64,000 nt of DNA from NCBI GenBank assembly GCA_041389225.1, contig JAWKSI010000001.1:51821-115820 (forward strand), in the 5' to 3' direction. A program made the position numbers and the translations under genes. Numbering within the stretch: position 1 is the stretch's first letter; every line of letters starts with the position of its first letter. This document shows, piece after piece, positions 11,962 through 34,135 of the stretch. The notes below the pieces were generated by a model, which worked only from the letters and a program-made list of their open reading frames with translations, did no database searches and was not told the origin of the DNA. Origin of the DNA: Candidatus Doudnabacteria bacterium (GTDB lineage Bacteria > Patescibacteriota > Doudnabacteria > UBA920).

Positions 11962-12010
11962 CTAAAATTTTTATCGTGCAGACCTACACACTATCGATTT
12001 TAGGTTAAAT

Positions 12011-12040
12011 AAAACCGCCGTAAGGCGGTTTTATTTATTC
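12011..12040. terminator. bidirectional terminator (aaaaccgcc gtaa ggcggtttt)
   Basis: Hairpin flanked by A-runs and T-runs, between the tRNA and the vapC 3' end. Confidence 0.55.
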
Positions 12041-12510
12041 TATTTTAATTTTATATCTTTAGGTTTCAGTAAATTTATCCCTGGAACTATTTCGAAGTCG
12101 TCTTTACCATCCCTTGAGAGTATACTTTTAACATTATTATTTTTCATAATCACACAATGAAAAGCATCTCCCCAGCCAGGATTGTATAAATTCATATTTT
12201 CACCAACATCTGACCAAAAATCATCAAAGGTATAATTGCTGTTTTTATGTGTATCTAGGATAAAAAACTTAACATTATAGATCTTTGATGATCTTTGAAG
12301 CCTATTAATATCTGAAGCAACTTTTTTGGGCTTTATATTAAATTGATTTATTAATACTTTTGCCAGCTCAACAAAAGTAAATAATGAGGTTACAAACCTA
12401 ACACTCTCCATCCCACTTAGCACCTCAACAGCATTTTCTATTTCAGAGCTAAATTCATCTTTCATATACCATGAAACAAATATATTTGTATCTAAATATA
12501 TATCTTTCAT
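12040..12510 (-). CDS. vapC: PIN-domain protein (VapC-like toxin)
   Basis: The N-terminus MKDIYLDTNIFVSWY is typical of PIN domains (D..N, acidic residues). 156 aa. Confidence 0.7.
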   Translation of the reverse strand: MKDIYLDTNIFVSWYMKDEFSSEIENAVEVLSGMESVRFVTSLFTFVELAKVLINQFNIKPKKVASDINRLQRSSKIYNVKFFILDTHKNSNYTFDDFWSDVGENMNLYNPGWGDAFHCVIMKNNNVKSILSRDGKDDFEIVPGINLLKPKDIKLK

Positions 12511-12511
12511 T

Positions 12512-12667
12512 TTATTTCTTAGCTTTGAATTTTACTGGAACTTCAACCTTTACAGCTTTTTTAGCTTTAAATGAAACACTCTCACCATTTTTAGTTTTAA
12601 AACTAACAGTTACCGGCTTTTGGACTGTCTTGGTAGCCTTAAATTCAACAATTTTTTTGCGTGTCAT
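12512..12667 (-). CDS. unannotated 51-aa lysine-rich ORF (MTRKKIVEFKATKTVQKPVTVSFKTKNGESVSFKAKKAVKVEVPVKFKAKK), a candidate antitoxin partner of VapC
   Basis: Minus-strand translation from the ATG at 12667. Its stop overlaps the vapC start. It falls below the 60-aa cut-off of the ORF track. Confidence 0.4.
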   Translation of the reverse strand: MTRKKIVEFKATKTVQKPVTVSFKTKNGESVSFKAKKAVKVEVPVKFKAKK

Positions 12668-12676
12668 AATTCGATT

Positions 12677-13949
12677 CTACACCAATTTAAGAATCTTGTC
12701 TTCATACTTAATTTTAGATTTTAAATTAGACAATAATAATCTTTTCTCACTAATAGAGCCTTCTTTCAGCAAATATTTTGCATAATTTTTTATGTCAGCG
12801 TCTTTATTATTAGAGACACTCTTAATACCCAAGACACTGGATTGAAATTTATTAAACCTGCTTACTTCGAGCTCTAGCCTTTTCTTAATCCCCAGTTCAT
12901 CAATATCCGTATAATCAATAATTTTAGCTAACTGATCAATCAGCTCTTTTTCTCTAATATACTTGTTTTTACAAAACCTATCTTTAGCTCTAGTGCAGGA
13001 ATAATAAATGTATTTGTTTGACCCACCGTTTTTTAGCTCTTTCCATTTTTCTTCTGCTGATATTCCTGAGCCACACTTACCGCATATAAACATTTTAGTA
13101 AATGCGAATTCTTTAGATTGTCTAGAAATATTATTTCTCTTAAGTTGTTCCTGAACTTTATCAAATAACTCCTTGGTTATAATTGGCTTGTGTCTTCCTT
13201 GATAAACATTGCCGCTATTTCTTGGATATTCAAATTCTCCGTAATAAAAGGTGCTTTGAAGTATTTTGTAAACCGCCGAAAGTGTTACAGGTCTATTACC
13301 TCTTGTATAGAAGTTAAGCTCGAATCTTAACCAGTGATATAACTTTCTACCTGACCATTTTTCGTGAGCCACTTTTTCGAACATTTGTTTTATAACTAAG
13401 GCTCTCTGAGGATCCTGAATAACCACACCCTTTCTATCTGTGCGCTTTTGGTTTAGATAGCCCAAAGGTGCCATATTTGGCCAAAAACCAAGCTCTACGC
13501 GCGTCCTCAACCCTCTTTTAACATTTATACCACGATTGTCATTTTCTAGCTTAGCTTGAGACCCCAATATCATCAGCAAAAACTTTTCATTTGGATTATT
13601 AGAAAACTCTTGGCCGTATGTTCTAATTTTTTGCAATTGCCCTCCATCCATTAAATCGACAATAGATCCCAAGTCTCCAGCATTACGAGATAACCTATCA
13701 GGCGCCCAGGTGAGTATGCCGTTAAATTCTACCCTCTTTAATTTCGCTTAAGAGCTCATTAAAGACTGGTCTTTGATTAGTTTCTTTAGCAGAATGTGAT
13801 TCTTGTTTAATTGTCACAATCTCAAGCCGATCACGCTCTGCTATTTGTAGCATCTCTTTTATCTGTGAATCTATAGACATTACCTGCTTCTCGTCGCCCT
13901 CGGAGCTACCCCTTGCGTATAGACAATATCTTATCTTTATTTCTTCCAT
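12677..13949 (-). CDS. large serine recombinase: resolvase catalytic domain plus recombinase and zinc-ribbon domains, interrupted by one frameshift at about 13722-13730
   Basis: The N-terminal 75-aa ORF (YARGSS..Q) reads on in another frame as ...GILTWAPDRLSRNAGDLGSIVDLMDGGQ.... Removing one T from the attt run at the junction restores ...EGRINGILTW.... The C-terminus has Cys-rich CGKCGSG..YYSC. Confidence 0.8.
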
Positions 13950-14020
13950 ACCACATTAATGACGCACCTGCCTTTTTTAGTCTAGGTAGATAATTTAAAA
14001 ATCAGCCATTTGGCTGATTT

Positions 14021-14722
14021 TTAAGAATACTTATATTCGAGTTTCTCTTTGACTTTTTTCCAATTTGGTAGCTTCTTGTCTAAACAAGCAAAAAATAACT
14101 TATTATGCTTTCTATATTTAATATGGCATAGCTCATGGATTAAAACATAATCTATACAATCTTTAGATGCGTGAATAAGTTTTGGATTTAATGATACTTT
14201 TTTACCCTTAAGGAAACTTCCCCACCTCTTCGACATATTTCTTAGTTCTAACACCAAATCATTATTTTTCGGAAATAGCTTTTTCATCTTCTCAAACCTA
14301 TCCTCAAATACAACAACTGTTTTTTCTTTATACCACCGATCAATTAATATTTTTGTATACGAACTGTTCTTAACTGATTTACTTGTTCTCACCTCAAAGA
14401 CCCCTCTAAAGAGGCATATCGAATCAGCTTTAGCACTTTTAACTACTAATTTATATTGCCTACCTAAATATAATAAACTTTCCCCAGAAACATACTCACG
14501 TTTATATTCTTTTTTATTCACTCGATCAAAAAAGTCGAGCTGTTTATTCATCCAAAACCATTTTCGTTTTAAAAACTGTTCAACTTTATACAGGTCAATA
14601 TCCAAGGGACCTTTGACCACTATTTCTTTGCTCGGTTTAATCGTTAAAGATAAACTTTTGCGTTTTTGTTTTATTAATTGATATTGGTATTGGTAATTTC
14701 CGTATACAAATTTTTTGATCAT
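14021..14722 (-). CDS. WLM/DUF45 (YgjP-like) zinc metallopeptidase, a known companion of type I R-M operons
   Basis: HEXXH motif in DYVLIHELCHIKYRKHN. Lies immediately downstream of hsdR. Confidence 0.7.
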   Translation of the reverse strand: MIKKFVYGNYQYQYQLIKQKRKSLSLTIKPSKEIVVKGPLDIDLYKVEQFLKRKWFWMNKQLDFFDRVNKKEYKREYVSGESLLYLGRQYKLVVKSAKADSICLFRGVFEVRTSKSVKNSSYTKILIDRWYKEKTVVVFEDRFEKMKKLFPKNNDLVLELRNMSKRWGSFLKGKKVSLNPKLIHASKDCIDYVLIHELCHIKYRKHNKLFFACLDKKLPNWKKVKEKLEYKYS

Positions 14723-17700
14723 TAGATTATCTTATGGTTATTCTCTGCCAACTGCACGGCTTTTTCAATCACTTCTTTACTAGCTTCTGGGCTTAAATCC
14801 AAATCATATTCAACCCTTGCCACATCATACAAATAGTCGTCAATTTTATTCATCATCTTTCTTTTTACATCTAAATTTTTATGCCAATCCACTATACTTT
14901 CTTGTTTGATTATACCTATGATATCTAATATTACCGAGGTATAATTTTCGCCGTCTAAAGGTATTAAGTTCTGTAAATTTCTATACAGAATGTCAGCACC
15001 TTTAACAGCAGTTACTTTTTCTGGCAAGCCTTCATCTCTTTTATTTACCACTTGGTCTTCAATCAACCTTAATTGTTTTAAGGCTTCGATGTCTGCCAGT
15101 TTCTTTAATCTCATTTGATCTAAAATCTCTTGGATTTTTTGAAAAGCGATCATAAAATTCTGGATCAGACTCAACATTTTCTCTAATTGTCTTATCTGTC
15201 TGGGCCGCGATCGCTTCTGCTTTAGATTTGTCGGAACCTAGATTTTCTACTTCTTCTTGAAATGCATCTCGGTCGGTAATGTTAACTTGCTTAGTCAAAA
15301 GTTCTACCCCTTTTGCATCAACGTATTTATCCAGCACATCAATTAAAGACTGTTTGTATTCTCCTAAATCTACAGAATCACCATAAACCAAACTTGAAGC
15401 TTTTCTTAATTCCATAAATTTCTTTAGCTCTCTTTTATATAAATCAATGTGTTTAAATTCTTTTACAAAGTTTTGTAAGACGAGACATTCATTAAACTCA
15501 CGAATAAACTTATTCATAGTTTTATAAAATACATCTCTTTGCTGTTCATCCTCTAAATGTCTAATAAAAACCTCGTCATCTTTAGAACCCTTAACTTCTT
15601 TAAAAATATCGTGAAGTTCACCATATGAATGTTCCAGCGATTCTATTTTGTCATCTACATCAATTAAAGCACTCTTAACATCATCTTCATCATAATTACC
15701 AAATAGTTTCATTGCGGTATCAATATTCTTAGCATTTTCCGAATAGTCGACTATAAAACCAGCAGTTTTTGGCAAGACTTCATTTTCAAATAATCTATTG
15801 ACCCGAGCAATAGCTTGCAGTAAATTATGATCTCTTAAGTCTTTGGATAAATACAAAACTGTATTTCGTGGAGCATCAAATCCAGTAAGAAGCTTATCTA
15901 CCACTATAATAATCTCCACCCCATCTTCATTATTTTTAAAACTACTAATCACACCGTCTTCATAAGATTTTACACTAGAGTGATTAGCCCTAACTTCGCC
16001 CAAATAATCCACTACAGTCTTTTTATGGGTATTAACTTTATCTCCATCCTCATGTTCATCAGAAATCACTACAGCTGTATTGATCTTCCCACTAATTGCA
16101 AAAGCTCGCTGGAACAACACCGCAGAAAACTTTGATGGTGCTACAACCTGTGCCTTTAATCCAGTACCTTTAAAATTATCCAAAAAGTGTTTTTCTATAT
16201 CAAAAGCTATCTCTGCAATTCTCTGGGGATTGTCTTTAATAATTTTACTTCCTACATATTGCTGAATCTCTTGCTTTTGTTTGTCCGACATTCCAGCGGT
16301 AATCCGCTCGATATGTTTGTCGATCATGTCTTTATTCTGCACTAAATCGACATATCGACCCTCATAAATTAAAGGTAAAATAACTTTATCATCTAAGGCA
16401 TCATCAATTGTATACCTATCAATGTAGCTACCAAATTTTCTCCAACTTTCAGCTTCTTTTTTCATTAATGGAGTGCCTGTAAAGGCAATATAACAAGCGT
16501 TAGGAATTATCCGATTCATTTCCAAATTGGCAATCCCGGTTTGACTGCGGTGTGCTTCATCAATTAATACAAAAATATTTGAATCATTATCAACCAAGCC
16601 AGTTCGCTTTTTACTGGCTGATTCAAACTTATGCACCAAAGTAGTAATTACGTCCAAACTCTTATCTTTTATTAATCCTAATAAATGCTCGCCACTAGTG
16701 GCCTGGGTTACACCCTTTTTAAGATTACAGTTTTTAAAAGTATCTTTAATTTGTTTGTCTAAATCTTTACGATCTGTAACTACAATCACTCTTGGGTTGG
16801 TAATATTCGGATCTTCTATTAACGCTTTCACAAACATGACCATTGTTAAAGATTTACCTGACCCTTGAGTATGCCAAATTAACCCACCTTTTCTCTTACC
16901 TTCGCCATTAGCACCTTCTTCGTATTCATTAATTCGATTAAATATTTTACGGATTGCAAAATACTGTTGGTACCTGGAGATCTTTTTTATCCCAGCGTCA
17001 AAAACTATATAGTTTTTAGTTAAATCTAAAAGCCTGTCTGGTTTAAATAAAAACACCACACCTTTATCTTGTTCTGTTACCAATCTACTTGTATGTTGTG
17101 TAGTTTGTTCAGGAGATCCATTTAAATCTTTAACCAACTGATTATATACTTTTGGTTCAATTTGCCTTTGCATTACAGACAAAACCTCAGATTCTACTTC
17201 TTCTACACTTAAGCCTTTTTCCTTCCATGCGCTATAAAACTTATTAGGTGTTCCCGTGGTACCATATCTTAAGTCCTTACCATTAGTGCCAACTAATAGT
17301 TGAGCATATGTAAATAACTTAGGGCAATAATCTGCTCCCTGGTTGCGATTTTGTTGCGAGAAAGCCTTGTCTACATCTACGCTAGATTTTTTGTTTTCTA
17401 TTACTGCGAAGGGTATTCCGTTTACAAAACAAACAATGTCTGGGCGAATCTTTTGCTTTCCTTGGGCTTCAAATTCTACAGATACATGGTAGTCATTATT
17501 ATCTGGATTTTTAAAATCTATAAATCTAAAATTCTTAGAAACCTTTTTACCATCGTGATGCACGACTATTGTTTTCCCACCAGCCGTCGGCATAATAGTG
17601 TTAAACACTTCTTGTGAACTATCTATTAAGCCTTTGTATTCTAAATTCTCTAATTCATCAATTGCATCCCTAACATCCTTTTCTCCAAACTTATAGTTTT

Positions 17701-17896
17701 TACCATCTACTTCGTAACTATTAAGCTCCATTAGTTTTTTAGATGCAATATCGTGCAGCAAAAAAGTGCTTGAGTCATTTCCACGCAGCTGCATTATTTC
17801 TTCTCGAGAAATATATTTATATCCAAGATTAATCAATAACTCTACAAAAGGTAATTGTGATTGCCTGGCTTCATCAAAATGTACTTGTTCTAACAT
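14722..17896 (-). CDS. hsdR: Type I restriction enzyme R subunit HsdR, roughly 1060 aa if one frameshift at the A6 run (about 15160-15166) is corrected
   Basis: N-terminal HsdR nuclease region, SF2 helicase motifs (HTQGSGKSLT, FVLIDEAHRSQ) and a C-terminal domain carried by the 151-aa ORF. Reading A6 as A5 gives the continuous ...DPEFYDRFSKIQEILDQMRLKK.... Confidence 0.9.
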
Positions 17897-17998
17897 AATT
17901 TAGTAATTTAATTCCTATAAATAAGTGGGTTTTTATATTTGACATAAACATGATTTATGCTATAATACCTACATCAATACGAAAAGGGATCCGAACGG

Positions 17999-18544
17999 TT
18001 AATTACCTAAGGAGCCCTTTTCTTTTTGCATGATTTTACTTTTAATACTAGGATTTTCTAGTTGATCAAAATATTCTGCGCCAATTTTTTTATATAAAGA
18101 GGAAGCGTATTTTTTATTTGGAAATAATACCTTTAAAAACCTATTTTCGGATATCAAAAAATCAACGAGCATTTTATAGTCGCCATCGCCAGACACTAAG
18201 ACAACTTTATCAAAGTCATCTTTTTTATACATCTTTTTCATAATAGAAAAAATAATATCACAATCCACATTTCCTTTTTTATTTCCCAGCATTGCAGAAT
18301 TATGTTCTCTAAAGACTAAAACAAAACCGGCTTCTTGTATATCTGTATATAAATCTTGATAGTCTTCGTTAAGCCACCCTAAAAAATAATATGCAGTTTT
18401 AACCTTATATTTATTTGCCAAGTATACCCGAAATTTCTCCAAGTCTACTTTCCAAGGACTTATTTCATGCTTAGTGGTGCCCATAAATAAATTTTGCCCA
18501 TCAATATAGGCTAAATTATTTGGTTGTGATTGATAGTCATTCAT
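17999..18544 (-). CDS. NYN (LabA-like, PIN-superfamily) nuclease-domain protein
   Basis: AYIDGQNLF...DCDIIFSIM...VVLVSGDGDYKMLVDFL matches the NYN pattern (IDG.NL...D......VLVSGD.DF). Lies between hsdS and hsdR. Confidence 0.7.
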   Translation of the reverse strand: MNDYQSQPNNLAYIDGQNLFMGTTKHEISPWKVDLEKFRVYLANKYKVKTAYYFLGWLNEDYQDLYTDIQEAGFVLVFREHNSAMLGNKKGNVDCDIIFSIMKKMYKKDDFDKVVLVSGDGDYKMLVDFLISENRFLKVLFPNKKYASSLYKKIGAEYFDQLENPSIKSKIMQKEKGSLGN

Positions 18545-18552
18545 ATAAGATA

Positions 18553-19731
18553 CTACTTTACTTTTTCTAATAAGTCTTCTGGGGTTCTAATCTTCCCAGT
18601 AACTAAATTGTTTAATAAATATTTTTTCTGTTCTTGCCAGAGGGTAAGTTTTTTCTGGAGAGCGGCGATCTCATCATCAGCAGAGGTGAGAATATCAGCG
18701 ATTGCTTTTTGTTCCCTTAGTTCTGGAACACTATATTTAATAGACAGAAGTTCTGACTTATTCAACTTTGCTCTTGTTCCTCCGTTCAAATACATCAAAA
18801 CATTTTTATGCACCGTTGAATAAAAAAGGAAATCTTGAGAATTTTTTTCATTCGCTTTAATAACATGCGCATGATTGTTAACCCATGATTTCCCATATAC
18901 ACGATAAGCGATTGGTCGATTTTGATATTCATCAAATTGACCTCCATCTTCTGCAACCAGAATAATATCTTCATCAAAAAGATAATCATTTACATAATCA
19001 ACGATATTATTTGCACCGCAGTATGGAATAATGCCTTGCATTCTCGATCTTTCGTCAGAGTTTAATGGAACTCTCTTTGCGTCTAAACAAATAGCAATAT
19101 CTTTAAGTTTTACCTCTTTCCACTCGTCACTAAACCCAGGTAAACGTTTTTTGCCTGTGAGGAGTTGTTGCATCAAACCCTTTTTGATATTTTTCTTTAA
19201 AGCAATTTTCTTTTTAAGTTTTTCAATAGCCTCATCCCATGTTTCGAGAACAGTAGCGATACGGTTTTGTTCAAGGAGAGGGGGAAATTTCATGGGGCAA
19301 GAAAGTATGTCATCTTTTCGTAAGTTTGTTTGATTTACCCCATCATCAAAAGAAAGGAAGTAGCGATTTCTGCTTAGAGCAAGATATAAGAACTTCCTTG
19401 ATACCCCCTTTGCCCTAAATCCTCCAATTCTTTGATTTAGAGTATAAGTATTGTCTTTATTGACATAAAAACACTTTGCTATAGCTTTCCCATTTGGGAC
19501 ATCACTCATTACCATTGCAATGTCTCCTTTTTTTAAAGGGACCAAAAACTTATTTGAGTATTTTTTTATTTTTCCATTAGATGAAATAAATTTTGAATTC
19601 ACAACTACATAATTTCCGTTTTCATCAATATCTTTTTCATGCCCTTTTCCATTGAAAAAGTCTACTACTTCTCTGAGTTGTTTTTTTACCCACCCATTAG
19701 GAATATTTTGTTGTTTATTTCTGGTCTTCAT
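18553..19731 (-). CDS. hsdS: Type I restriction-modification specificity subunit HsdS (two target-recognition domains)
   Basis: 392 aa. The central and C-terminal conserved coiled regions (LLEQNRIATVLE.., LREQKAIADILTSADDEI) are typical of HsdS. Confidence 0.8.
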   Translation of the reverse strand: MKTRNKQQNIPNGWVKKQLREVVDFFNGKGHEKDIDENGNYVVVNSKFISSNGKIKKYSNKFLVPLKKGDIAMVMSDVPNGKAIAKCFYVNKDNTYTLNQRIGGFRAKGVSRKFLYLALSRNRYFLSFDDGVNQTNLRKDDILSCPMKFPPLLEQNRIATVLETWDEAIEKLKKKIALKKNIKKGLMQQLLTGKKRLPGFSDEWKEVKLKDIAICLDAKRVPLNSDERSRMQGIIPYCGANNIVDYVNDYLFDEDIILVAEDGGQFDEYQNRPIAYRVYGKSWVNNHAHVIKANEKNSQDFLFYSTVHKNVLMYLNGGTRAKLNKSELLSIKYSVPELREQKAIADILTSADDEIAALQKKLTLWQEQKKYLLNNLVTGKIRTPEDLLEKVK

Positions 19732-20208
19732 TTAATTTCTTTTTGATTGAATTCCTTGTTCAACCACAGCTTCTATATTTCTCGCAATCCAGTTATATGC
19801 ATCAGACCCTGCGTCATACACAGAAATATATTCTGATAAATTTTTGCCATTCTTTAAGCCGATTTTTATAAACGGGTTAATGCCCTTGGAACATGTTCCT
19901 GTTCGTGGGTCCCTGAGATTATGAATGTATATTCCGACCAATCCTTTTTTACTATTCCATGCTTTTTCTATTTCATACTTTACCCACTTGCTTTTATGAG
20001 TCTCCGCTCCAATCAAAACAACAACACAAGAAGATTTTTCTATGTTTTCGTCAATCCACCGACGTATCGCCGCATCTCCACCTCTTTTAATTTCTTCCCA
20101 TCTATTTGGGGTGACGGGTTTATTAGCTTCAATAACACCTATGTTTCTAATTTGTTGTACTCTCATTACATCATTACGAAAATGAAAGCTGTAAAATATA
20201 TTCCTCAT
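19732..20208 (-). CDS. ThsB-like TIR-domain protein (DUF1863 / MTH538 TIR-like family), 158 aa
   Basis: NIFYSFHFRNDVMRVQQIRN...NRWEEIKRGGDAAIRRWIDENIEKSSCVVVLIGAETHKSKWVKYEIEKA...GLVGIYIHNLRD...SKGINPF aligns motif-by-motif with Thoeris ThsB-type proteins (VFFSFHY.D...RV..VRN, VLIG..T..R.WV.YEI.K, IGIHI...KD, KG.NPF). The gene is wedged between hsdM and hsdS, and its stop abuts the hsdS start. Confidence 0.75.
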   Translation of the reverse strand: MRNIFYSFHFRNDVMRVQQIRNIGVIEANKPVTPNRWEEIKRGGDAAIRRWIDENIEKSSCVVVLIGAETHKSKWVKYEIEKAWNSKKGLVGIYIHNLRDPRTGTCSKGINPFIKIGLKNGKNLSEYISVYDAGSDAYNWIARNIEAVVEQGIQSKRN

Positions 20209-20214
20209 AATTAA

Positions 20215-20612
20215 AATATACTAATTAATATTACTAATAAAATAGTGGGTATATAAAATAACTTTAAGGTATTGGACCACATGCAATACAAAATAGCAGT
20301 GTCACGCAATGAATTAAATTTAGAAACAGACATTGAATAATCTATAAGTGCTTCATCTTTGATATTTCTAACTTCATCATATAAATGCCTGTATTTGCGC
20401 TCTAAAGATAAAAATAAGCATCATGAATCCAAAATATCATGATTACCAAAATCAATATAATCTGCAATTCATTTCTACAAATTCTAAAAATGCTGCTGCT
20501 AACGCCACAACTAGTGTTATCATCCATCCTCTCAGGGTGAATAGATTATTTCCCATGCGAGAAATAACCTCTTGAATCATTTGCAAATGTGCAATCTTTT
20601 TGTTATCCGACA
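20215..20612 (-). pseudogene. small membrane protein gene (about 165 aa, two predicted TM segments) broken into three frames
   Basis: Minus-strand ATG at 20612 gives MSDNKKIAHLQMIQEVISRMGNNLFTLRGWMITLVVALAAAFLEFVEM. The reading continues in the other two frames as NELQIILILVIMIFWIHDAYFYL and ERKYRHLYDEVRNIKDEALIDYSMSVSKFNSLRDTAILYCMWSNTLKLFYIPTILLVILISIF. It lies directly upstream of the TIR gene. Confidence 0.4.
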
Positions 20613-20626
20613 TATTAATTTTTGAC

Positions 20627-22129
20627 TATTTAATACTCATAGCCTTTAAGTATTTTTTCATCTGTTCTTCAAGCTCTTTCAATTCTGGCTCAAGCTTCGA
20701 CAACTCCTGTAGTTTTGCTCCAATATCTACTGGTCTTCTTCAAGATATCGACATATCTTGTAATATTTAGATTAAAATCATTTTCTTTAATCTCTTTAAA
20801 CTTAACCACACGAGCAAACTTCTCGACATCTTTACGATCTTTGTAGCTTTTAAAGATTTTATCTATGTTTTCTTCGGTTAAAGTATTTTGAGCTTTCCCA
20901 GATTTATACTCTTTAGACGCCTCGATAAACATGACATCTTTTTTGCTCTCATTCTCTGCCCCTGCCTCACGAGATCTGTCTATCACCAAAATAGCTACAG
21001 GAATACCGGTAGTAGAGAATAGTCCTGCAGGCAGGCCAATAACAGCATCAATCAAGTTTTCTTCTAGTAACTGCTTTCTAATTTTCCCTTCAGCGCCACC
21101 TCTAAATAACACACCATGAGGCACTATAATAGCTCCACGACCTGTTTTAGGTTTTAAGGTTTCTACCATATGGCTGATAAAAGCATAGTCACCTTTGTCT
21201 TTAGGTGGCACTCCACGGTGAAAACGGTTAAATGGATCACCTTCGGCATTTTCGGCTCCCCATTTTTTTAGACTAAAAGGAGGATTAGCTACTGCAACAT
21301 CAAATTTAATTAATTTACCATTTTCTACTAGCAGTGGATTATTTAAAGTATCACCCCACTCAAGTCGGGCAGAGTCTTTGCCATGCAAGAACATGTTCAT
21401 ACGAGCTAGCTGGTAAGTAGAACCCGTGGATTCTTGTCCATATAAAGCGTAATCGTTTGACCCTTGAGATTCTACTTCTTCTCCTGCTAACAAAAGTAAA
21501 CCACCTGAGCCAACAGCGAAATCACAAATACGATCTCCAGGTTTTGGTTGAGCAAGTTTGGCCACCAATTTTGCAACATTCCTAACAGTAAAAAATTCTC
21601 CTGCCTTTTTTCCTGCGTCTGCACCAAATCGCTCGATCATATACATATAAGATTCGCCGAGAACATCCTCACCAACTTCAGACAAATCAATCTTATTAAA
21701 ATCCTGCATCAAGTGCCTGATCATTTTATTACGTTGATCAAGCTTGCCTAAGATTGACTCATTATTAAAGTCTACAGAAAAAATTCCTTCGAGCTTATCA
21801 CGATTCTCTTCTTCTATTTTATGAAGAGCTTTATTAATCTCTTCACCAATATTGTCAGATTCTATCTTTTCGTATAAAGCATCAAATGTAGCTTCTTCTG
21901 GAATATAAAAACGATCGAGTTTCATCTTTTCTTCGACACGCTTCTTATCACCCTGGTAACGCTCTACATACTCAGCCCTTTTTATTTTAGAAATGTCACT
22001 GACATATTTAAAGAAAAGCATTACTAATACATAATCTTTATACACTCCAGCATCAACAGATGTCCTAGAAGAATCCGCTGCCTGCCAAAGCACTTTATTT
22101 AATTCTGGTTGTGTTATTTTTTTAGACAT
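20627..22129 (-). CDS. hsdM: Type I R-M N6-adenine DNA methyltransferase HsdM. The annotated stop at 20690 is probably a 1-nt indel, and the reading continues to 20627 as ...ELEPELKELEEQMKKYLKAMSIK.
   Basis: N-terminal HsdM domain and NPPF motif (VAVANPPFSLKKW). A typical coiled C-terminus is recovered after a 1-nt correction near 20695. Confidence 0.9.
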
Positions 22130-22709
22130 TATTTTGTAGTTTAAGAAAAATGGTCTTTAGTATATCGCGTTTTAGCTGCTTTTGTTTGTCGTGGAGGTTT
22201 ATCTGCTTAATAACATTATTATACAAATCAACTATAGTTTTTTGTTGTTCTAGACTAGGTAATAAGATAGAAGTTTCACCTAAGACAGATTTAGATATGT
22301 GCATAATAGTACTTCCTCTGGCTTTTTGCATTATTTCTGATTGAAAAGCAGGTGAGTTTAAGTAAAAATTTAAGTACTCAGGATTAACCTTTTTGTCTTT
22401 GATTCTAATAATATACAAAGAGGAGTTTGCCATTGATTTTTGTTCGCTTTGAACCAGGGAAGATCTAAATTCTTTCCCGGGAGTACTGCGGGACAACATT
22501 AGAATATCATTCTGGTGTATCACTGCTGGAGACCTGGCTGGTAAACTTTCTAGCTTAGGTAAATTACTCAGCTCCGATATCTTGGTATTGCTTACAATGT
22601 CAGATGCTTGCACCACTGGATATTGGCCGTTTTCAGAGTAGTCCTTAATATAGATTGCTGCCCCAGATATAATATCGACAAGATCTTTTAACATAATATT
22701 TGAACTCAT
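22122..22709 (-). CDS. hsdS: half-size HsdS (single target-recognition domain), overlapping the hsdM start
   Basis: 195 aa. It has a TRD-like region and the conserved C-terminal helix (LEQQKTIVDLYNNVIKQINLHDKQKQLKRDIL). Confidence 0.6.
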   Translation of the reverse strand: MSSNIMLKDLVDIISGAAIYIKDYSENGQYPVVQASDIVSNTKISELSNLPKLESLPARSPAVIHQNDILMLSRSTPGKEFRSSLVQSEQKSMANSSLYIIRIKDKKVNPEYLNFYLNSPAFQSEIMQKARGSTIMHISKSVLGETSILLPSLEQQKTIVDLYNNVIKQINLHDKQKQLKRDILKTIFLKLQNNV

Positions 22710-22739
22710 ACAGACATTATACTAAGTTATAATTTTCTG

Positions 22740-23153
22740 TCAAATATTTTGATTATTTTTCTTAATCCCTGCAGCTTTAGCAATAATATCTGCCAAAGTA
22801 TGGGCTTCTTTTAGGTTTTCTGGGATTTCTTGTTCTTTTGAATAGACAATTCTAATGGTCTTATCACTACTATCTTTACTCGAGTAATGTTTATTATTAT
22901 GCTTTAATGCAAATTTTATTAAATCGCTCTTCCCTTCCTGTATCCCTTGTATCAGAGCATTTTCTGCAATATCCCCAATATTTTCTTTACCCTCTTTAAT
23001 TGCTTTATTAGTTTGAGCGGTAAACCGTTTACTAGATTTCCTTAATCTGTAATAGCTTGCCTTGCTGAATCCAGTCTTTTTACAGGAATACAAAACATTG
23101 CCAGTTTTTTCTAGCTCAGTTAAGAATCTTTGTTTTTGATCTTTAGAAATCAT
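22740..23153 (-). CDS. hypothetical protein with an N-terminal HTH (KKTGFSKASYYRLRK)
   Basis: ORF with an HTH-like motif. Its stop overlaps the start of the upstream methyltransferase. Confidence 0.4.
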   Translation of the reverse strand: MISKDQKQRFLTELEKTGNVLYSCKKTGFSKASYYRLRKSSKRFTAQTNKAIKEGKENIGDIAENALIQGIQEGKSDLIKFALKHNNKHYSSKDSSDKTIRIVYSKEQEIPENLKEAHTLADIIAKAAGIKKNNQNI

Positions 23154-23905
23154 TTTGTAAGAGATTGGTATCTATCGATAATTACTTGGCAGTAATTTAA
23201 GTCTATTTCAAAAGCAATACATTTCCTGCGTGTTTGCTCGCATGCAAGTAAAGTTGACCCAGAACCTGCAAACAAATCCAGTACTGTATCACCTATATTA
23301 CTACTATTTAAAATCATCTCTCTTAAAAGCGGTAGGGGCTTCATCGTTGGATGAAGTTTGCTTTTCTGCGGTTTTGGATAAAACAAAGCTGATTTACTTT
23401 TGGATTTATAAAATTTATGCCTGCCGTGCCAGCCGTAATAGATGAGTTAGTGCTGTGGTAAATAATCGAGTCGTCCTATCACTGGCTTATTTTTTACCCA
23501 GACAAGCATTTGCCCAAGTTTAATCTGTACTTTATCGCAAGCTTTCTTTAATGCAAAAATTAACTTATCTGAATTAAAAATATATATTGAATTATGTTCT
23601 GCAAAATATGGCGCAATGTTTTGCAGCCACCCAACAGAAAACTCCTTATAACTCTCTTCTGACTGCACTTCATCTCCAATTATTTCTGTATCATTACTTA
23701 ATTCTGCAAACTTGTATTTACTTTTTGTATAATCTACGCCGTAAGGCGGATCGGTGAGTAATAAATTAATTTTCTTTCCTGTTAATGCCTGATCCACCAA
23801 GTCTTTATCACGGCTATCACCGCAAACAAGAATATGACTACCAAGTTCGACTATACTGCCGTACTTAATTAAGTTTTTTGGCTTTTTGTCCTGTAAGTTC
23901 TTCAT
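23150..23905 (-). pseudogene. ParB-associated N6/N4 DNA methyltransferase (second copy) interrupted by an in-frame TAA at 23447-23449
   Basis: LLLTDPPYGV motif in the N-terminal part. HPTMKPLPLL and FAGSGST motifs in the C-terminal part. The two ORFs are in the same frame: ...DYLPQH*LIYYGWHGRHKFY.... Confidence 0.7.
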
Positions 23906-25129
23906 ATCTATTGATAATTAATTGTGTAAAGATAGGTGATTGCTCAATTACAAAAGCCTTTCGCTTTAATTGCTCGCAAGCAAGAAGCTCACTACCACTG
24001 CCTCCGAAACCGATAAAAATATTGTCTCCGGGTTTACTACGCCTCAGTAGTGGTCGTTCAAATAAAGACACGGGCTTCTGGGTTGGGTGCTCATAACTGC
24101 CCTGCGATTCTTTCGTCAACCAAATATCAATCATATCTTCAATGTTAGAAATGGTAGCATTACCAGTTCCAACATTGGATTTAATATCTCGTGGAAGTTT
24201 TTATGTTTATCAGATAAATATGGCTTCCCAAGAGTTCCATAAATTACTGGCTCATAGCACTTATTAAATCCAGATTTTGGAGTACAGTTGATCCCATTTT
24301 TGATCCAGACGCAAGTCCGCTTATAACTAATGCCTAGATTTTTATATATTGTTTGAACCAATCCTACGTTCCGCTGATCATTCCATATAAATATGTGAAC
24401 GTCGGGTTTTGTAATTTTAAGGCTAGTAGATATAGCTTTAGTTAAGAACTTCTCGTACTCATCACTCGACAAGTTATCGTTAAAATGTCCTCCATACTGA
24501 GATTTCCCAGATATTCCTTTATCATAATCCATGCAGATTCCATATGGCGGGTCACTAAGAATCATATCCATCTTTTCTCCGTTAGTTACTTTTAAAACAT
24601 CTGTTTCTTCAGTGCTGTCGCCGCAAAGTAGATAGTGATTTCCAAGTTTGAATAAATCCCCAGTTTTTATCTTTGTGTGTTTTGCCTGCTCTTCTTGCTG
24701 GGGCTTAATATCTAAATCTTCAAGAGAAATTTGGTTATCCCAAATATCACTTAACTCATTTTGACCAAACCCTATATCGAGCAACAAGTCTAAATCAAAT
24801 TCCTTCAAAAGCTCGTTGTTCCATGACCCAGTATTCTGGTTACTTCTAAGCAAATATTCTTCAAGCTCTGTTTTGTTCAGAAGACGACTTGGTACACGAA
24901 CTTCTATTTCTTCATCTGTTCTGCCAAGTAGCTTTAATATTTTGAGCCTTTGATGACCACTAATTACTGTGCCATCAAGATTAATAGCAATAAGCTCTAC
25001 ATAGTTAAACCGTTTAAAACTTTCAGTTAAGTGCTCTTTTTGAGTTTCGGACAAAGTCCTTGGATTTTTGTCGTAAGGAATTAAATCCTTAACTAGTCTT
25101 TTTTGCGTAGACCAAACTAAATTTTTCAT
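23865..25129 (-). CDS. ParB-like nuclease domain fused to an N6/N4 DNA methyltransferase, split by a frameshift at an A5 run (about 24196-24200)
   Basis: N-terminal ParB-like region (LIPYDKNPRTLSE), MTase motifs ILSDPPYGI, EHPTQKPV and FIGFGGSGS. Reading A5 as A6 gives the continuous ...DKHKKLPRDIKSNVGTGNATISNIEDMIDIWL.... Confidence 0.75.
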
Positions 25130-26109
25130 AGTATTGCTTTTTAATTGTCTAGTATAATTTCAGCAGACATATTAGCGTTACCTCAAAAGGAGTTTAGAAA
25201 ATAAAAAACTGCTTTTTTAAAAGCAGCTTTGTTTGTTATCCACTCCGAATAATTACAGCTCCGGAGTTTTATTTAAATTTAAAGTTATACGAACTATTTA
25301 TTCTATAACCAAGACCGGGTTGAGATTCAACTAAATTAATAGTAGTATCTAATTCTCTACGCACCTTTTTATTAATATTGCTATACCTTTTCTAAAGGCC
25401 TTCGCTTGAAGCATACGATCCAGGTGCTACTATTAATTGTTCTGAAGTTCTATATTTTATATCTTCAGATAAAGCTTTCAAAGCCATTACGCCCTTATTA
25501 GTTAAATTTATTTGCTTATCATTACCTAAATGTAGTGTCCTTGACCGTATATCTAAGAAAATAGATTTTTGATTTATTACACGCCACTATTCTGTTGCTC
25601 AAAAGTTCGATAATTCTTTGATTTTGTTTTGTATTTATAATCTATGCTTCTTGTCTACTAGATTCGTTTAAGCGTGTAGTAATATTTTTTAAAGGTTTAA
25701 CAATATGACTAAAATCGGTAATTCGTCTTAAACTCTGAGAAAGCTCATTAATTGAATTTAAAAACGGCAAGTTAAAATCAGATTTTCTCACCTCGCTCTA
25801 TTCGTTTACTTATAGATTTTTATTTTCAAGCTTTACTTTCATACTATAATTATACCGTAAAATTAAACTTAAAATCATGGAAATTAGCCAAAAAACCATA
25901 GATAGACTTCATAAATATTTCTTAAAAACCTATGGGGTGGATATGACAGAAGAAGAAACGAGAGAATCAGCTGAAAGTCTAATAGGGGCTTTTTCTCTAC
26001 TAATAGAGATGGATCAAAAGGAAAACCAAAAGCAACAAATGAATAGTAATCAAAATAACAAATAACTGTTATAATGATATAAAATTACTTAATTTTATTA
26101 AAAAATCCT

Positions 26110-26729
26110 ATGAAAAATGAAATAGAAGCAACTTTTCTATCGGTAGACAAAGATGATATGAGAGAAAAGTTTAAAGTAACGGCTATACCCTAAAAACTCC
26201 AGAGTATATGATGCGACGAAAGACTTTTGATTTCTCCAAAGTCTCCCCTGGTAAAAATAAATGGGGTCGAGTTAGAACAGAATCGGATAAAACTACAATG
26301 ACAATTAAAGAAATTACTGGTGACGGTGTAAATGATACCTATGAAGTAGAATTAGTGGTTAACGATTTTGATACTGCCACAGAATTCTTTGAAGCATGTA
26401 ACATTCACCCTAAATCTTTTCAAGAAAATATGAGAGAAGTCTGGGTTAAAGATAATATCGAAGCTACCATAGATATGGCCAGGTCTAAATCCTTTTGTTG
26501 AATTTAGAGACCATAGATGAATCAGCTCAAAACAGCAAGTAAAGAACTTGAGTTTAATTATGATGAGGCTCTATTTGGTAGTATTGATTTAGTATATGAA
26601 AAAGAACTGGAATTCCAGCTGCGGAAATTATCAAACTCCCAGAAATTACATTCGACAAAGTCCCTCAAAAATAAAAAAACGAGCCGTGGAAATAAATTCC
26701 GCGGCTCTTTAGTTTGTAATTTGAATTAA
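26110..26729 (+). pseudogene. CYTH-like (class IV adenylate cyclase / triphosphate tunnel family) gene fragmented into about 3 pieces
   Basis: The N-terminus MKNEIEATFLSVDKDDMREKFKV carries the CYTH EIE..F signature. It continues in the 26208..26501 ORF after a stop/frameshift, and possibly in 26517..26729. Confidence 0.4.
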
Positions 26730-26757
26730 AGTGTCCTTAATTGGTGGGTATTTATAC

Positions 26758-27705
26758 TCACCAGGCTCTTCCATGCACCATCCCTCCACATTTGTCCAGA
26801 GCCCTGCAATTGAAATTGCAGAATGGTGTCACCGTTAACCGAAGAGAGGTCTTAGATAAAAGCCTTTTGACCTCAATTTCTCCGATTTGACCCTGCAAAG
26901 CAGTCTTTAAACTGTCAGGTTTGCCGAAATGAGTTGGAAGGAAGAAACCAATATCCCTTCTTAAATAACAGAAGTATAAATTTAAGTATGGGTCAACCCT
27001 AGCGTAATCACCAAAACCCTCCTCACAAACTTCTGTATACTGACAAGTCGAGCAAGGATGGTTTGAGCGATCCAGTTTGTCACCAAGCTTTACCTCGACT
27101 AAGCCCCCGCCCAGTAAATGGAACCTTAACCTTTTTCTTCCCAATTGCTTTCTTACCCTTTCAATCTCTATCGTTCTTGGCAAGACCATATTTTTAACAA
27201 CTGGTCGCCAATCTTGATAATGAGGTTTTATGGGTTTGGTCACTTTCAGGGGTCCATAACAAAGTGAACAGTTTAAGGCGACACTTATACTCTTCCAAAA
27301 GATAACTGTTCTGGAATGTCAGAAGTATAACCTTTTAGCAAAACTCGGTTAAAATCAATTTTAATACCCAGATTCAGGGCTTTTTTTACCCCAGATATAA
27401 ATTGATCGTAGTCTCCATGACCACCAGAAATCTCTTTGAAGACTATTGGATTAGTCGAATGCCAACTAGTCCGTATAAAGGACAAGCCTGCGACGGAAAG
27501 CTGTTTTCAAATCCGCCTAACAATTGTCCGTTAGTAGTCATTGAAACTTTAAACCCTTTATCAACCAAACAGTGAACAACATCATTGATTCGATACTTGC
27601 CATCCCTCCACAATAGCGGTTCAAGAGCACCGATTTCCAAGTTTCGATTCCCCCTATACTAATCCACTCATCAGCGATACTCAAGATGTTACCAAATGAC
27701 AGTGG
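26758..27705 (-). pseudogene. radical-SAM-like enzyme remnants (at least 3 frame-broken pieces). The canonical CxxxCxxC region is missing.
   Basis: Motif EPLLWRDGKYRINDVVHCLVDKGFKVSMTTNGQLL. Cys-rich C-terminal fragment (CSTCQYTEVCEEGFG..., FCNFNCRALDKCGG). Confidence 0.45.
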
Positions 27706-27707
27706 TT

Positions 27708-28270
27708 TCATGATCCCCCTCCTACTTTTGAAATATAACCCAGAATCTTCTCTAGCGTTTGTTCTTTTGAATCACTACTGGTATCCAAAGTGATCAAGTC
27801 CATGTCCAAAAACTTTTGAACCTCGTCAAGAAAACCACTGTTGTTTTCAAGCTTCACATCACTTTTCTTTTCCAATCTATTTCTAATCCGAGCATCCCGC
27901 ACACCGGAATCACAGGTTAACAAAAATGAATAGTCGGGTTTTATAATGTTCGACTCATCGTGAATTAATTTTATCCTGCGATCCAGTACTAAATGGTATG
28001 CCATTGTAGAAGATATGTACCTATCAGAAACAACAGAATTTCTTTTCAGAAATTTCTGAATCTGAGAACTATCATGGTCAATAGCTAACCTGTAAAAGCA
28101 ATACCTCTGAATAGGAGTGGCTGTGTTTTCAACTTCTTGCGAAACTGAGCAAAACTATCAGAAGGTGATTTGTAGCATATATAACCACATCTCTCAGCCA
28201 ACAATTCAGTTATTGTAGTTTTACCTACACCATCGACTCCGTCTATAGAAATAAACAAGTTCTTTTTCCA
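27708..28270 (-). pseudogene. thymidylate (dNMP) kinase-like gene split in two (P-loop N-terminus and lid/C-terminus)
   Basis: ISIDGVDGVGKTT P-loop in 28085..28345. The C-terminal fragment 27708..28004 reads ...DYSFLLTCDSGVRDARIRNR.... Confidence 0.5.
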
Positions 28271-31358: not shown

Positions 31359-31446
<88 letters not shown>

Positions 31447-34134: not shown

Positions 34135-34135
34135 G

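What the first reader, a model, noticed from the sequence alone, without database searches (positions are those of the whole stretch)
20215..20627. Fragmented small 2-TM protein gene immediately upstream of the TIR gene; hsdM C-terminus also needs a 1-nt correction
Minus-strand translation from 20612 gives a plausible 48-aa N-terminus (MSDNKKIAHLQMIQEVISRMGNNLFTLRGWMITLVVALAAAFLEFVEM). It continues in the other two frames (NELQIILILVIMIFWIHDAYFYL; ERKYRHLYDEVRNIKDEALIDYSMSVSKFNSLRDTAILYCMWSNTLKLFYIPTILLVILISIF). Small 2-TM proteins next to TIR or nucleotide-signalling genes are often membrane effectors (SLATT-like). Separately, hsdM reads ...TTGVVEA* at 20690. Removing one nucleotide gives ...VVELEPELKELEEQMKKYLKAMSIK* (ending at 20627), a typical HsdM C-terminus.
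Basis: seen in the sequence. Interest (0 to 1): 0.5.

Follow-up and report, generated by a model that had tools for sequence, protein, structure and literature searches.

The report
Dead Thoeris membrane effector gene
The broken small gene is a real but inactivated copy of a known three-helix membrane "effector" that pairs with a TIR sensor in a recently described anti-phage system (type V Thoeris / PADLOC PDC-M50). It sits inside a type I restriction operon that is itself decaying, so this is an ordinary defence-island pseudogene.

Summary
On the minus strand, 20211-20613 reads as one about 134-codon gene spread over three frames.

**The lesions.** Alignment with intact homologues shows two 1-nt deletions: one in a Gly codon at 20477/20478, and one in a T run at 20410-20414.

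**What the gene is.** The repaired protein matches PADLOC PDC-M50A over its full length (E 7e-35). It is 60-68% identical to many intact 132-136 aa proteins. The next gene (19732-20208) is an intact ThsB-type TIR.

**The cassette is known.** It was catalogued as PDC-M50, a candidate found embedded in type I R-M operons (Payne 2024). It very probably equals type V Thoeris, ThsB plus the 3-TM effector ThsF "DUF2270" (Yirmiya 2025). TIRs that paper labels "DUF2270 - Type V" match the TIRs lying next to M50A genes in my loci.

- The protein has three TM segments, not two.
- It gives no SLATT hit.
- The hsdM lesion is a net 5-nt deficit at 20734-20746, not an indel near 20695.

**Real or artefact.** The disruptions cluster in the low-GC island at 12-33 kb (hsdR, hsdM, recombinase, two methylases, a radical-SAM-like gene, FIST). 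The 43 kb of core genes show none, which favours real decay over assembly error. Interest is low.

The parts
20211..20613 (-). Pseudogene of the PDC-M50A / ThsF-like 3-TM effector (about 134 codons once two bases are restored; stop 20211-20213)
   Evidence: Three-frame reading. PADLOC PDC-M50A E 7e-35 over the full length. 66 intact homologues, up to 68% identical. tblastn hits each fragment in a different frame.
20477..20478 (-). Lesion 1: a 1-nt deletion inside the Gly codon of ...FLEF-G-RNELQ...
   Evidence: Nucleotide alignment with the intact genes of L006, L001 and L004. Coordinates.
20410..20414 (-). Lesion 2: a 1-nt deletion at a T run (T5 here; intact genes read TTT-[C/T]T.), breaking ...DAYF-L-SLER...
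   Evidence: Nucleotide alignment. Coordinates.
19732..20208 (-). Intact ThsB-type TIR gene (158 aa). It starts 2 nt after the effector's stop, and hsdS starts at the base after its own stop.
   Evidence: Pfam ThsB_TIR 1.3e-27. PADLOC ThsB 2.4e-64 and PDC-M50B 3.6e-57. 69% identical over residues 1-157 to the L006 TIR. The WVKYEIE glutamate motif is present (sequence).
20690..22129 (-). hsdM open reading frame as it now stands (479 aa, wrong C-terminal 18 aa)
   Evidence: Pfam HsdM_N + N6_Mtase. 78% identical to L001 HsdM up to residue 463.
20734..20746 (-). hsdM lesion: a net 5-nt deficit relative to four homologues
   Evidence: Nucleotide alignment with L001, L007, L011 and L012.
20626..20733 (-). 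Displaced original hsdM C-terminal coding frame (PVDIGAKLQELSKLEPELKELEEQMKKYLKAMSIK*)
   Evidence: Frame translation and homologue C-termini.
22122..22709 (-). Half-size hsdS (195 aa) upstream of hsdM. The same gene exists in the related loci L001-L003.
   Evidence: Pfam Methylase_S. L001 gene table.
18553..19731 (-). hsdS (392 aa, two target-recognition domains)
   Evidence: Pfam Methylase_S, two stretches.
17999..18544 (-). NYN-domain gene between hsdS and hsdR, a second embedded gene
   Evidence: Pfam NYN 1.4e-15. Weak PADLOC hits to NYN and HEC-09.
14722..17896 (-). hsdR, split by a frame change at an A6 run (15132-15142) into 15059-17896 and 14722-15177
   Evidence: Pfam domains. tblastn with L001 HsdR hits two frames. 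Junction alignment.
14021..14722 (-). YgjP-like metallopeptidase gene. It follows hsdR here and in the related loci.
   Evidence: Pfam YgjP-like 2.1e-46. The same gene follows hsdR in L001, L003 and L006.

Best explanation
The locus is a two-gene TIR signalling defence cassette nested between hsdM and hsdS of a type I restriction-modification operon. The operon lies on a low-GC genomic island next to tRNA-Ser.

**The two genes.** The first gene encoded a about 134-aa membrane protein of the PDC-M50A family. It has an N-terminal amphipathic helix, a TM1-TM2 hairpin, a conserved cytoplasmic helix with an E-R-x-Y-R-x-L-Y-x-x-V-R motif, and a third C-terminal TM helix. The second gene encodes a ThsB-type TIR protein.

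**How intact systems work (inferred by analogy).** In type V Thoeris, the TIR senses phage infection and converts NAD+ into a cyclic ADP-ribose isomer. This was shown to be 3'cADPR for one Bacillus system. The small membrane protein (ThsF) is thought to oligomerise into a ring with basic inter-subunit pockets, bind that signal, and breach the membrane, which aborts the infection.

**State in this window.** The effector gene has been inactivated by two independent 1-nt deletions, so the system cannot work as encoded. The surrounding hsdM and hsdR are frameshifted too, so the whole defence operon is decaying.

**Shown here:** the gene's identity, the lesions, the pairing with TIR, and the embedding in the R-M operon.

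**Inferred:** equivalence with ThsF, the signalling chemistry, the pore mechanism, and that the lesions are biological rather than assembly errors.
For: **Identity.**
- PADLOC PDC-M50A E 7e-35 and PDC-M50B/ThsB E 4e-57 / 2e-64.
- 66 intact homologues, and at least 5784 clusters found with the family profile.

**Lesions.** Two 1-nt gaps against three intact genes.

**Pairing.**
- 64 of 85 loci carrying an M50A homologue have a TIR-like ORF on the same strand directly adjacent.
- Gene tables show ThsB_TIR next to it in L001-L006 and L087.

**Embedding.**
- 20 of 85 loci have hsdM next to the cassette, including all of the closest relatives.
- L006 shows the same order: hsdM, M50A, TIR, hsdS, X, hsdR, YgjP.
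- PDC systems were defined precisely as cassettes embedded in BREX, DISARM or type I R-M systems (10.1101/2024.01.29.577857).

**Link to type V Thoeris (10.64898/2025.12.03.692087).**
- The paper describes ThsF as a 3-TM 'DUF2270' effector.
- Its Table S1 TIRs labelled 'DUF2270 - Type V' match TIRs flanking M50A genes in my loci (passages):
  - 88% to the L087 TIR (Vibrio cholerae);
  - 54% to the 224-aa protein downstream of M50A in L026;
  - 44% over 251 aa between the experimentally validated B. thuringiensis ThsB and the ORF directly upstream of M50A in L036.
- Table S3 gives the gene order ThsF, ThsB.
- 12 of 80 family members give weak PF10028 hits. In the four I examined individually, these aligned colinearly to the same region: protein about 27-98 against profile 23-93.

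**Structure.** The AF2 model of homologue P0002 has pLDDT 90, with helices 5-46, 50-85 and 115-133. There are three hydrophobic segments.

**Effector swapping.** The same TIR clade elsewhere pairs with SIR2-SLOG ThsA, SLOG cluster 3 and HIT proteins. This marks the TIR as the signal producer and its partner as the effector.

**Real decay.**
- At least 10 disruptions lie in 12-33 kb.
- I found none in the other 43 kb, which holds 360 homopolymer runs of at least 5 nt.
- The hsdM lesion is a 5-nt difference, not a homopolymer slip.
- The island's GC is 0.33-0.35 against 0.37-0.41 elsewhere.
Against: **Pfam membership.** No member of the family reaches Pfam's PF10028 threshold; the best is E 0.0029, 17.7 bits against a cut-off of 25. 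The window's own protein gives no PF10028 hit at E<=10.

**Indirect link to ThsF.** I could not obtain a ThsF sequence, so the equivalence rests on the partner TIRs and the architecture, not on a direct comparison.

**No validated member.** No type V system with an M50A-type effector from this clade has been tested. One Vibrio type V system gave no defence in E. coli (Table S2).

**Sequencing error not excluded.** Three of the indels I resolved are 1-2 nt changes in or beside short runs (GG, T5/T6, A6). This is also the signature of long-read errors. No reads and no near-identical relatives were available: the best TIR identity was 76% in metagenomes, and the effector protein's best match in species-representative genomes was 66%.

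**Flank check was coarse.** I checked the flanking regions by ORF continuity and Pfam domain completeness, not by full homology comparison.
Confidence: 0.75

Rival explanations
1. The gene is alive and the frameshifts are sequencing or assembly errors. These could be homopolymer deletions from long reads, or a poorly polished low-coverage island. The organism would then carry a working ThsF-like/ThsB cassette and a working type I R-M system.
For: The two lesions in the effector and the one in hsdR are 1-2 nt length changes in or beside short runs: GG, T5 against T6, and A6. Apart from the two deletions, the repaired protein keeps nearly all of the conserved residues of the family. The TIR, hsdS and NYN genes are intact.
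Against: The errors would have to avoid 43 kb of core sequence containing 360 runs of at least 5 nt and 137 of at least 6 nt, while hitting the 21-kb island at least 10 times. Under a uniform per-base model the probability is about 1.5e-5 for 10 events. The hsdM lesion is a net 5-nt difference in non-repetitive sequence. The affected genes are all accessory or mobile (recombinase, methylases, R-M, radical SAM, FIST). That is the pattern of relaxed selection.
Confidence: 0.13
2. The small protein is a SLATT-type or holin-like 2-TM effector. This would make it a member of the families used by CBASS and type VII Thoeris.
For: It is a small membrane protein next to a TIR gene. SLATT effectors do pair with some ThsB proteins in type VII Thoeris (10.64898/2025.12.03.692087).
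Against: No SLATT family appears among the 25 Pfam families that most of the 80 members hit at E<=10. One member of 80 has a weak holin hit (Phage_holin_3_6, E 0.017). The protein has three TM segments plus an N-terminal amphipathic helix, not a 2-TM N-terminus followed by a cytoplasmic domain. The window TIR's closest matches in Table S1 are labelled DUF2270 - Type V, not SLATT.
Confidence: 0.04
3. The broken gene is a regulated or phase-variable switch. Slippage at the T run would toggle a toxic effector on and off, or the fragments would be expressed as separate functional peptides.
For: One lesion lies in a T5/T6 run, a possible slippage site. Switching off a toxic abortive-infection effector could be advantageous.
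Against: Restoring the protein needs two independent corrections, and the second site (GG to G) is not a slippery tract. T5-6 is short for phase variation. Intact homologues often have C rather than T at the variable position, so there is no conserved tract. Neighbouring genes are broken in unrelated ways.
Confidence: 0.03
4. M50A is not the downstream effector. It could instead be a membrane anchor, a sensor, or an immunity partner of a TIR that itself kills by NAD+ depletion.
For: No biochemical data exist for this clade. 3'cADPR did not activate a second type V system in the published work. 21 of 85 M50A loci lack a recognisable adjacent TIR.
Against: The same TIR clade pairs interchangeably with established signal-activated effectors: SIR2-SLOG ThsA, SLOG proteins and HIT hydrolase. 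This is the pattern of a signal producer with swappable effectors. Several loci have two different TIR genes flanking one M50A gene, as in multi-ThsB Thoeris loci. [quoted passage not shown]
Confidence: 0.05

Closest known systems
PADLOC PDC-M50 (phage defence candidate; Payne, Hughes, Fineran & Jackson 2024, bioRxiv 10.1101/2024.01.29.577857)
   Same: Both proteins match the PDC-M50 HMMs: A at E 7e-35 over the full length, B at E 4e-57. The cassette lies inside a type I R-M operon, which is how PDC systems were discovered.
   Different: PDC-M50 is a prediction with no experimental test that I could find; a full-text search for 'PDC-M50' returned no papers. Here gene A is a pseudogene.
Type V Thoeris: ThsB + ThsF ('DUF2270', PF10028), Yirmiya et al. 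2025, bioRxiv 10.64898/2025.12.03.692087
   Same: It is a two-gene operon of a ThsB TIR plus a small effector with three membrane helices, in the order effector then TIR. TIRs labelled 'DUF2270 - Type V' in Table S1 are close relatives of TIRs adjacent to M50A genes (88%, 82%, 54% and 44% identity), and one is 55% identical to the window's TIR. Weak PF10028 hits align colinearly.
   Different: The family does not pass Pfam's PF10028 threshold, and the profile is 184 positions against about 134 aa here. The validated systems come from Bacillus and use a different TIR cluster. The signal (3'cADPR) and the heptameric pore are published for one system and from modelling only. This copy is inactivated.
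SLATT-domain effectors (CBASS Cap15-like; type VII Thoeris ThsH)
   Same: Small membrane proteins thought to oligomerise and breach the membrane when a nucleotide signal is made.
   Different: No SLATT hit was seen. There are three TM segments and an N-terminal amphipathic helix. The partner TIRs fall in groups labelled type V, not type VII.
Type II Thoeris ThsA (2 TM + Macro domain; renamed ThsC in Yirmiya et al. 2025)
   Same: A membrane-anchored effector paired with a ThsB TIR.
   Different: There is no Macro domain. The whole protein is about 134 aa and consists only of helices.
Other defence genes embedded in type I R-M operons (PrrC; TgvAB in Vibrio cholerae VPI-2, PMC11411939)
   Same: The same genomic habit: a separate defence module inserted within the type I R-M gene cluster.
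   Different: The proteins and mechanisms are unrelated: an anticodon nuclease and a type IV restriction enzyme.

Membership tests
PADLOC PDC-M50 | Protein A matches a PDC-M50A HMM | tested here: met
   PDLC04686, E 7.2e-35, residues 3-133 against profile 3-129 of 134. Three further M50A HMMs also hit. The match needs the two-base repair.
PADLOC PDC-M50 | Protein B matches the PDC-M50B HMM and is adjacent on the same strand | tested here: met
   PDLC04688, E 3.6e-57. The TIR start lies 2 nt after the A stop.
PADLOC PDC-M50 | Both genes intact | tested here: not met
   Gene A carries two 1-nt deletions. Gene B is intact.
Type V Thoeris (ThsB + ThsF) | A TIR-domain ThsB protein | tested here: met
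   Pfam ThsB_TIR 1.3e-27. PADLOC ThsB 2.4e-64. 55% identical to a Table S1 'DUF2270 - Type V' TIR.
Type V Thoeris (ThsB + ThsF) | An effector with three membrane-spanning helices | tested here: met
   Hydropathy peaks at 29-45, 52-68 and 117-133. AF2 helices of homologue P0002.
Type V Thoeris (ThsB + ThsF) | Effector belongs to Pfam PF10028 (DUF2270) | tested here: inconclusive
   12 of 80 family members hit PF10028, all below threshold (best E 0.0029, 17.7 bits against 25). The four examined individually aligned colinearly. The window's protein gives no hit. A profile-profile test was not possible because no DUF2270 or ThsF sequences were available.
Type V Thoeris (ThsB + ThsF) | Partner TIRs are the ones the authors assign to type V | tested here: met
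   Six Table S1 'DUF2270 - Type V' TIRs from four of that paper's TIR clusters, plus the validated B. thuringiensis ThsB, all find their best matches directly beside M50A genes.
Type V Thoeris (ThsB + ThsF) | TIR makes 3'cADPR on infection, the effector is activated by it, and the system protects against phage | not testable with these tools
   Published for a B. thuringiensis system only.
SLATT effectors | Match to a SLATT Pfam family | tested here: not met
   None for the window's protein at E<=1. None among the top 25 families for the 80 members at E<=10.
SLATT effectors | Two N-terminal TM helices followed by a cytoplasmic helical domain | tested here: not met
   An N-terminal amphipathic helix, then a TM hairpin, a cytoplasmic helix and loop, and a third TM at the C-terminus.
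Holins | Match to a holin family, or a phage lysis-cassette context | tested here: not met
   One of 80 members has a weak Phage_holin_3_6 hit (E 0.017). The context is R-M and TIR genes, not lysis genes.
Type I restriction-modification system | HsdM, HsdS and HsdR domains in one operon | tested here: met
   Pfam N6_Mtase and HsdM_N, Methylase_S, HSDR_N, SWI2_SNF2 and T1RH-like_C.
Type I restriction-modification system | All subunit genes intact | tested here: not met
   hsdM has a net 5-nt deficit. hsdR changes frame at an A6 run.

The most novel reading that the evidence does not exclude
The M50A family may be a separate, still unvalidated 3-TM effector family rather than ThsF/DUF2270 proper. 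Its first about 100 residues (amphipathic helix, TM hairpin and ERxYR helix) would then be a portable signal-sensing membrane module. The same module is fused to a HIT hydrolase domain in a type XI-like effector (L099, L105). If so, type V and type XI Thoeris would share a common receptor module. The embedded cassette in candidate-phyla bacteria would then be an unstudied Thoeris branch.
Probability: 0.2. Interest if true: 0.4.

Novelty: new member of a known kind. Interest (0 to 1): 0.15.

Why it matters
It matters little for discovery. The cassette is already in PADLOC and very probably corresponds to a published Thoeris type, and this copy is dead.

It is useful for annotation:
- The three ORF fragments at 20211-20613 should be called one pseudogene.
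- The TIR gene should be annotated as an orphaned ThsB.
- The type I R-M system should be marked non-functional (hsdM and hsdR are both frameshifted).

It also gives a clean example of a whole defence island decaying while the neighbouring core genes stay intact. And it shows that the PDC-M50 / type V cassette is habitually carried between hsdM and hsdS in small-genome (Patescibacteria-like) lineages.

Tried and rejected
- **Source genome.** An exact-protein look-up of the window's TIR found nothing on record. A genome-contig scan with the family alignment gave at best 66% identity. A metagenome scan with the TIR gave at best 76%. No same-lineage sequence was found, so the alleles could not be checked.
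- **Fold comparison.** The AF2 model is confident. The AlphaFold-database library was not available, and Foldseek against the PDB gave nothing below E 1.9. The fold therefore added nothing on family.
- **NCBIfam.** No model hits the effector.
- **Getting a real ThsF/DUF2270 sequence for a direct comparison.** The paper's tables hold only TIR sequences and gene ids. Plasmid homologues of the validated ThsB (at most 53% identity) had no effector ORF beside them. This route was dropped.
- **Literature.** A search for 'PDC-M50' found no paper.
- **Cache/histidine-kinase pair at 33502-36385.** I considered this as another split gene. I rejected it because the kinase ORF begins with its own Met and TM helix.
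- **SLATT and holin readings.** Rejected on the Pfam results and the topology.
Full report
**1. Observation**

On the minus strand an ATG at 20613-20611 opens a frame that reads MSDNKKIAHLQMIQEVISRMGNNLFTLRGWMITLVVALAAAFLEFVEM and stops five codons later. The reading continues in a second frame (NELQIILILVIMIFWIHDAYFYL*) and then in the third (ERKYRHLYDEV...TILLVILISIF*, stop at 20213-20211).

This is not a chance pattern:
- The joined sequence matches the PADLOC PDC-M50A profile from end to end at E 7e-35.
- It finds 66 intact proteins of 132-136 aa, up to 68% identical, and aligns with them along its whole length.
- tblastn with three intact homologues hits the three fragments in three frames, in colinear order.

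A nucleotide alignment with three intact genes shows exactly two single-base gaps in the window:
- One lies inside a Gly codon, between 20478 and 20477. It restores ...FLEF-G-RNELQ..., the family consensus.
- One lies at the T run 20410-20414. It restores ...DAYF-L-SLER....

After the repair, nearly all conserved positions of the family are present. The inactivation therefore looks recent.

**2. hsdM**

The lesion is not near 20695, though.
- The frame encoding PVDIGAKLQELSKLEPELKELEEQMKKYLKAMSIK* (stop 20628-20626) is already open from 20733.
- It matches the C-termini of four homologues that are 76-78% identical.
- The break is a net 5-nt deficit within 20734-20746, directly after RYVDI.

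**3. What the gene is**

The next gene, 19732-20208, starts 2 nt after the effector's stop. It is an intact ThsB-type TIR protein (Pfam ThsB_TIR 1.3e-27; PADLOC ThsB 2.4e-64 and PDC-M50B 3.6e-57).

The effector family is large and widespread:
- At least 5784 clusters at 90% identity match the family profile.
- In a scan of species-representative genomes, 194 stretches encode a relative. These include Patescibacteria, Gammaproteobacteria, Bacillota, Planctomycetota, cyanobacteria, Haemophilus and Vibrio.

The pairing with TIR genes is strong:
- In 64 of 85 loci, a TIR-like ORF lies directly beside the gene on the same strand.
- It is either a about 160-aa TIR like the window's or a about 230-aa TIR-like protein.
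- Several loci have one of each flanking the effector.

In 20 of 85 loci the cassette sits next to hsdM, and this includes all the closest relatives. L006 shows the same order as the window: hsdM, M50A, TIR, hsdS, an extra gene, hsdR, YgjP-like peptidase.

**4. Comparison with what is known**

PADLOC's PDC systems were defined by Payne et al. (bioRxiv 10.1101/2024.01.29.577857) as gene cassettes embedded in BREX, DISARM or type I R-M systems. PDC-M50 is therefore this very arrangement. I found no paper that mentions it by name.

Yirmiya et al. (bioRxiv 10.64898/2025.12.03.692087) describe type V Thoeris as ThsB plus ThsF:
- ThsF is an effector with three membrane helices, annotated DUF2270.
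- AlphaFold3 models it as a ring with basic pockets.
- For a B. thuringiensis system, the TIR makes 3'cADPR on infection, and added 3'cADPR is toxic to cells carrying the system.

I could not get a ThsF sequence, so I compared their Table S1 TIR sequences with my loci. TIRs labelled 'DUF2270 - Type V' find their best matches directly beside M50A genes:
- 88% to the Vibrio cholerae locus L087;
- 82% to L067;
- 54% to the 224-aa protein downstream of M50A in L026;
- 48-52% to the 208-aa proteins in L043 and L064;
- 44% over 251 aa between the validated B. thuringiensis ThsB and the ORF directly upstream of M50A in L036. The same holds for L046 and L044.

One of these TIRs is 55% identical to the window's TIR. 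Their Table S3 lists the gene order ThsF, ThsB, as in the window.

Pfam itself does not place the family in PF10028:
- 12 of 80 members give hits below threshold (best E 0.0029).
- In the four I examined individually, these always aligned residues about 27-98 to profile positions 23-93.
- The window's protein gives no hit.

I therefore file the gene as a PDC-M50A member, which was tested and met. I treat it as very probably the ThsF class, inferred from partner genes, architecture and weak colinear similarity.

**5. Not SLATT, not 2-TM**
- No SLATT family appears among the 25 Pfam families that most of the 80 members hit at E<=10.
- The AF2 model of the intact homologue P0002 is confident (pLDDT 90). 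It shows one long helix 5-46 (amphipathic part plus TM1), a second long helix 50-85 (TM2 plus a cytoplasmic helix carrying the conserved E-R-x-Y-R-x-L-Y-x-x-V-R motif), a loop, and a third helix 115-133.
- Hydropathy gives three TM-length peaks.
- No solved structure resembles it.

**6. Mechanism**

The TIR clade to which the window's TIR belongs pairs in other loci with SIR2-SLOG ThsA, with SLOG cluster-3 proteins, and with a HIT hydrolase. This is the pattern of a signal-producing ThsB with exchangeable effectors.

The most likely working of an intact cassette is as follows:
- Infection is sensed by the TIR.
- The TIR makes an NAD+-derived cyclic ADP-ribose signal.
- The signal binds the oligomeric membrane protein.
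- The membrane is damaged, and growth arrest or death of the infected cell follows.

Only the gene identities and associations are shown here. The chemistry and the pore are taken from the cited preprint and remain inferences for this clade.

**7. Are the frameshifts real?**

No reads and no near-identical sequences were available, so I used an internal control.

The region 12-33 kb has lower GC (0.33-0.35 in 12-28 kb, against 0.37-0.41 elsewhere). It begins right after tRNA-Ser(GCT) at 11871-11961 with a PIN gene and a serine recombinase. It holds at least ten disruptions:
- the recombinase;
- hsdR at an A6 run;
- the effector, twice;
- hsdM;
- two N6_N4 methylase genes, each split into an N-part and a C-part;
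- several fragments of a radical-SAM-like gene;
- a FIST gene, with two frame changes.

In the remaining 43 kb the genes follow each other without unexplained gaps. These include ClpB, RecG, UvrD, a histidine kinase, and ORFs of 1288 and 1383 aa. I found no split gene there, although this sequence holds 360 homopolymer runs of at least 5 nt.

A uniform error process would put ten events in the island alone with a probability of about 1.5e-5. The hsdM lesion is also a 5-nt difference in non-repetitive sequence. I therefore judge genuine decay of an accessory island much more likely (about 0.85) than assembly error. Three of the resolved indels are short-run length changes, however, so read mapping remains the decisive test.

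**8. Verdict**

The finding is real and correctly located. It is an inactivated copy of a catalogued and very probably already characterised type of defence cassette, in a decaying type I R-M operon.

The family (SLATT) and topology (2 TM) are wrong, and the hsdM lesion is misplaced. Interest is low.

Noticed in passing
L099:2723-3742 (also L105:319-1110): A 340-aa ORF lies next to a TIR that is 68% identical to a published 'HIT hydrolase - Type XI' ThsB. It combines a HIT domain (residues 22-110) with an M50A-like module (family HMM positions 5-100, E 3.5e-19). The first about 100 residues of the effector therefore look like a portable module shared between type V-like and type XI-like effectors.
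   Followed up: partly
L089-L119 (relatives of the window's TIR): The same TIR clade pairs with different partners in different loci: M50A (L089-91, L093, L096, L101-103, L119), SIR2-STALD ThsA (L094, L112), SLOG cluster 3 (L092, L106, L110, L111) and HIT (L099).
   Followed up: partly
window 14722-17896 (-), junction 15132-15142: hsdR is split at an A6 run. The frame after it (KIQEILDQMRLKKLADIEALK...) matches the homologues' C-terminal domain. Either A5 gained a base or A8 lost two.
   Followed up: yes
window 12683-13934 (-): The large serine recombinase at the island's edge next to tRNA-Ser changes frame near 13735. The resolvase N-terminal part and the recombinase/zinc-ribbon part lie in different frames.
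   Followed up: partly
window 23150-25129 (-): Two N6_N4 DNA methylase genes lie in tandem. Each is split into an N-terminal part (profile 1-111 and 1-86) and a C-terminal part (profile 142-218 and 153-219).
   Followed up: partly
window 26758-28004 (-): A run of short overlapping ORFs, one with a weak Radical_SAM hit (E 0.009). It looks like a heavily fragmented gene. The lesions were not resolved for lack of a close homologue.
   Followed up: no
window 31951-33103 (+): A FIST-domain gene just beyond the second tRNA-Ser (31359-31446) is split. FIST_N plus FIST_C positions 1-66 are in one ORF and FIST_C positions 85-131 in the next, with two frame changes around 32830-32860.
   Followed up: partly
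window 17999-18544 (-): A NYN-domain gene sits between hsdS and hsdR, the slot that holds a KAP NTPase in L006. It gives weak PADLOC hits to NYN (2e-5) and HEC-09 (3e-5), so it may be a second embedded defence candidate. It is intact.
   Followed up: no
L001-L003:5490-5996; L008:6400-6875: Other decayed copies exist. In L001-L003 the TIR gene upstream of the effector is called as 48-aa and 109-aa pieces. In L008 the downstream TIR is hit in two frames.
   Followed up: no
window 11871-11961 and 31359-31446; 12001-28000: Two tRNA-Ser genes (GCT and TGA) bracket the region. GC drops to 0.33-0.35 between 12 and 28 kb, against 0.37-0.41 outside. This fits an acquired island integrated beside tRNA-Ser(GCT).
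   Followed up: partly
window 14021-14722 (-): A YgjP-like metallopeptidase gene directly follows hsdR here and in L001, L003 and L006. It is a conserved companion of this type I R-M lineage.
   Followed up: no
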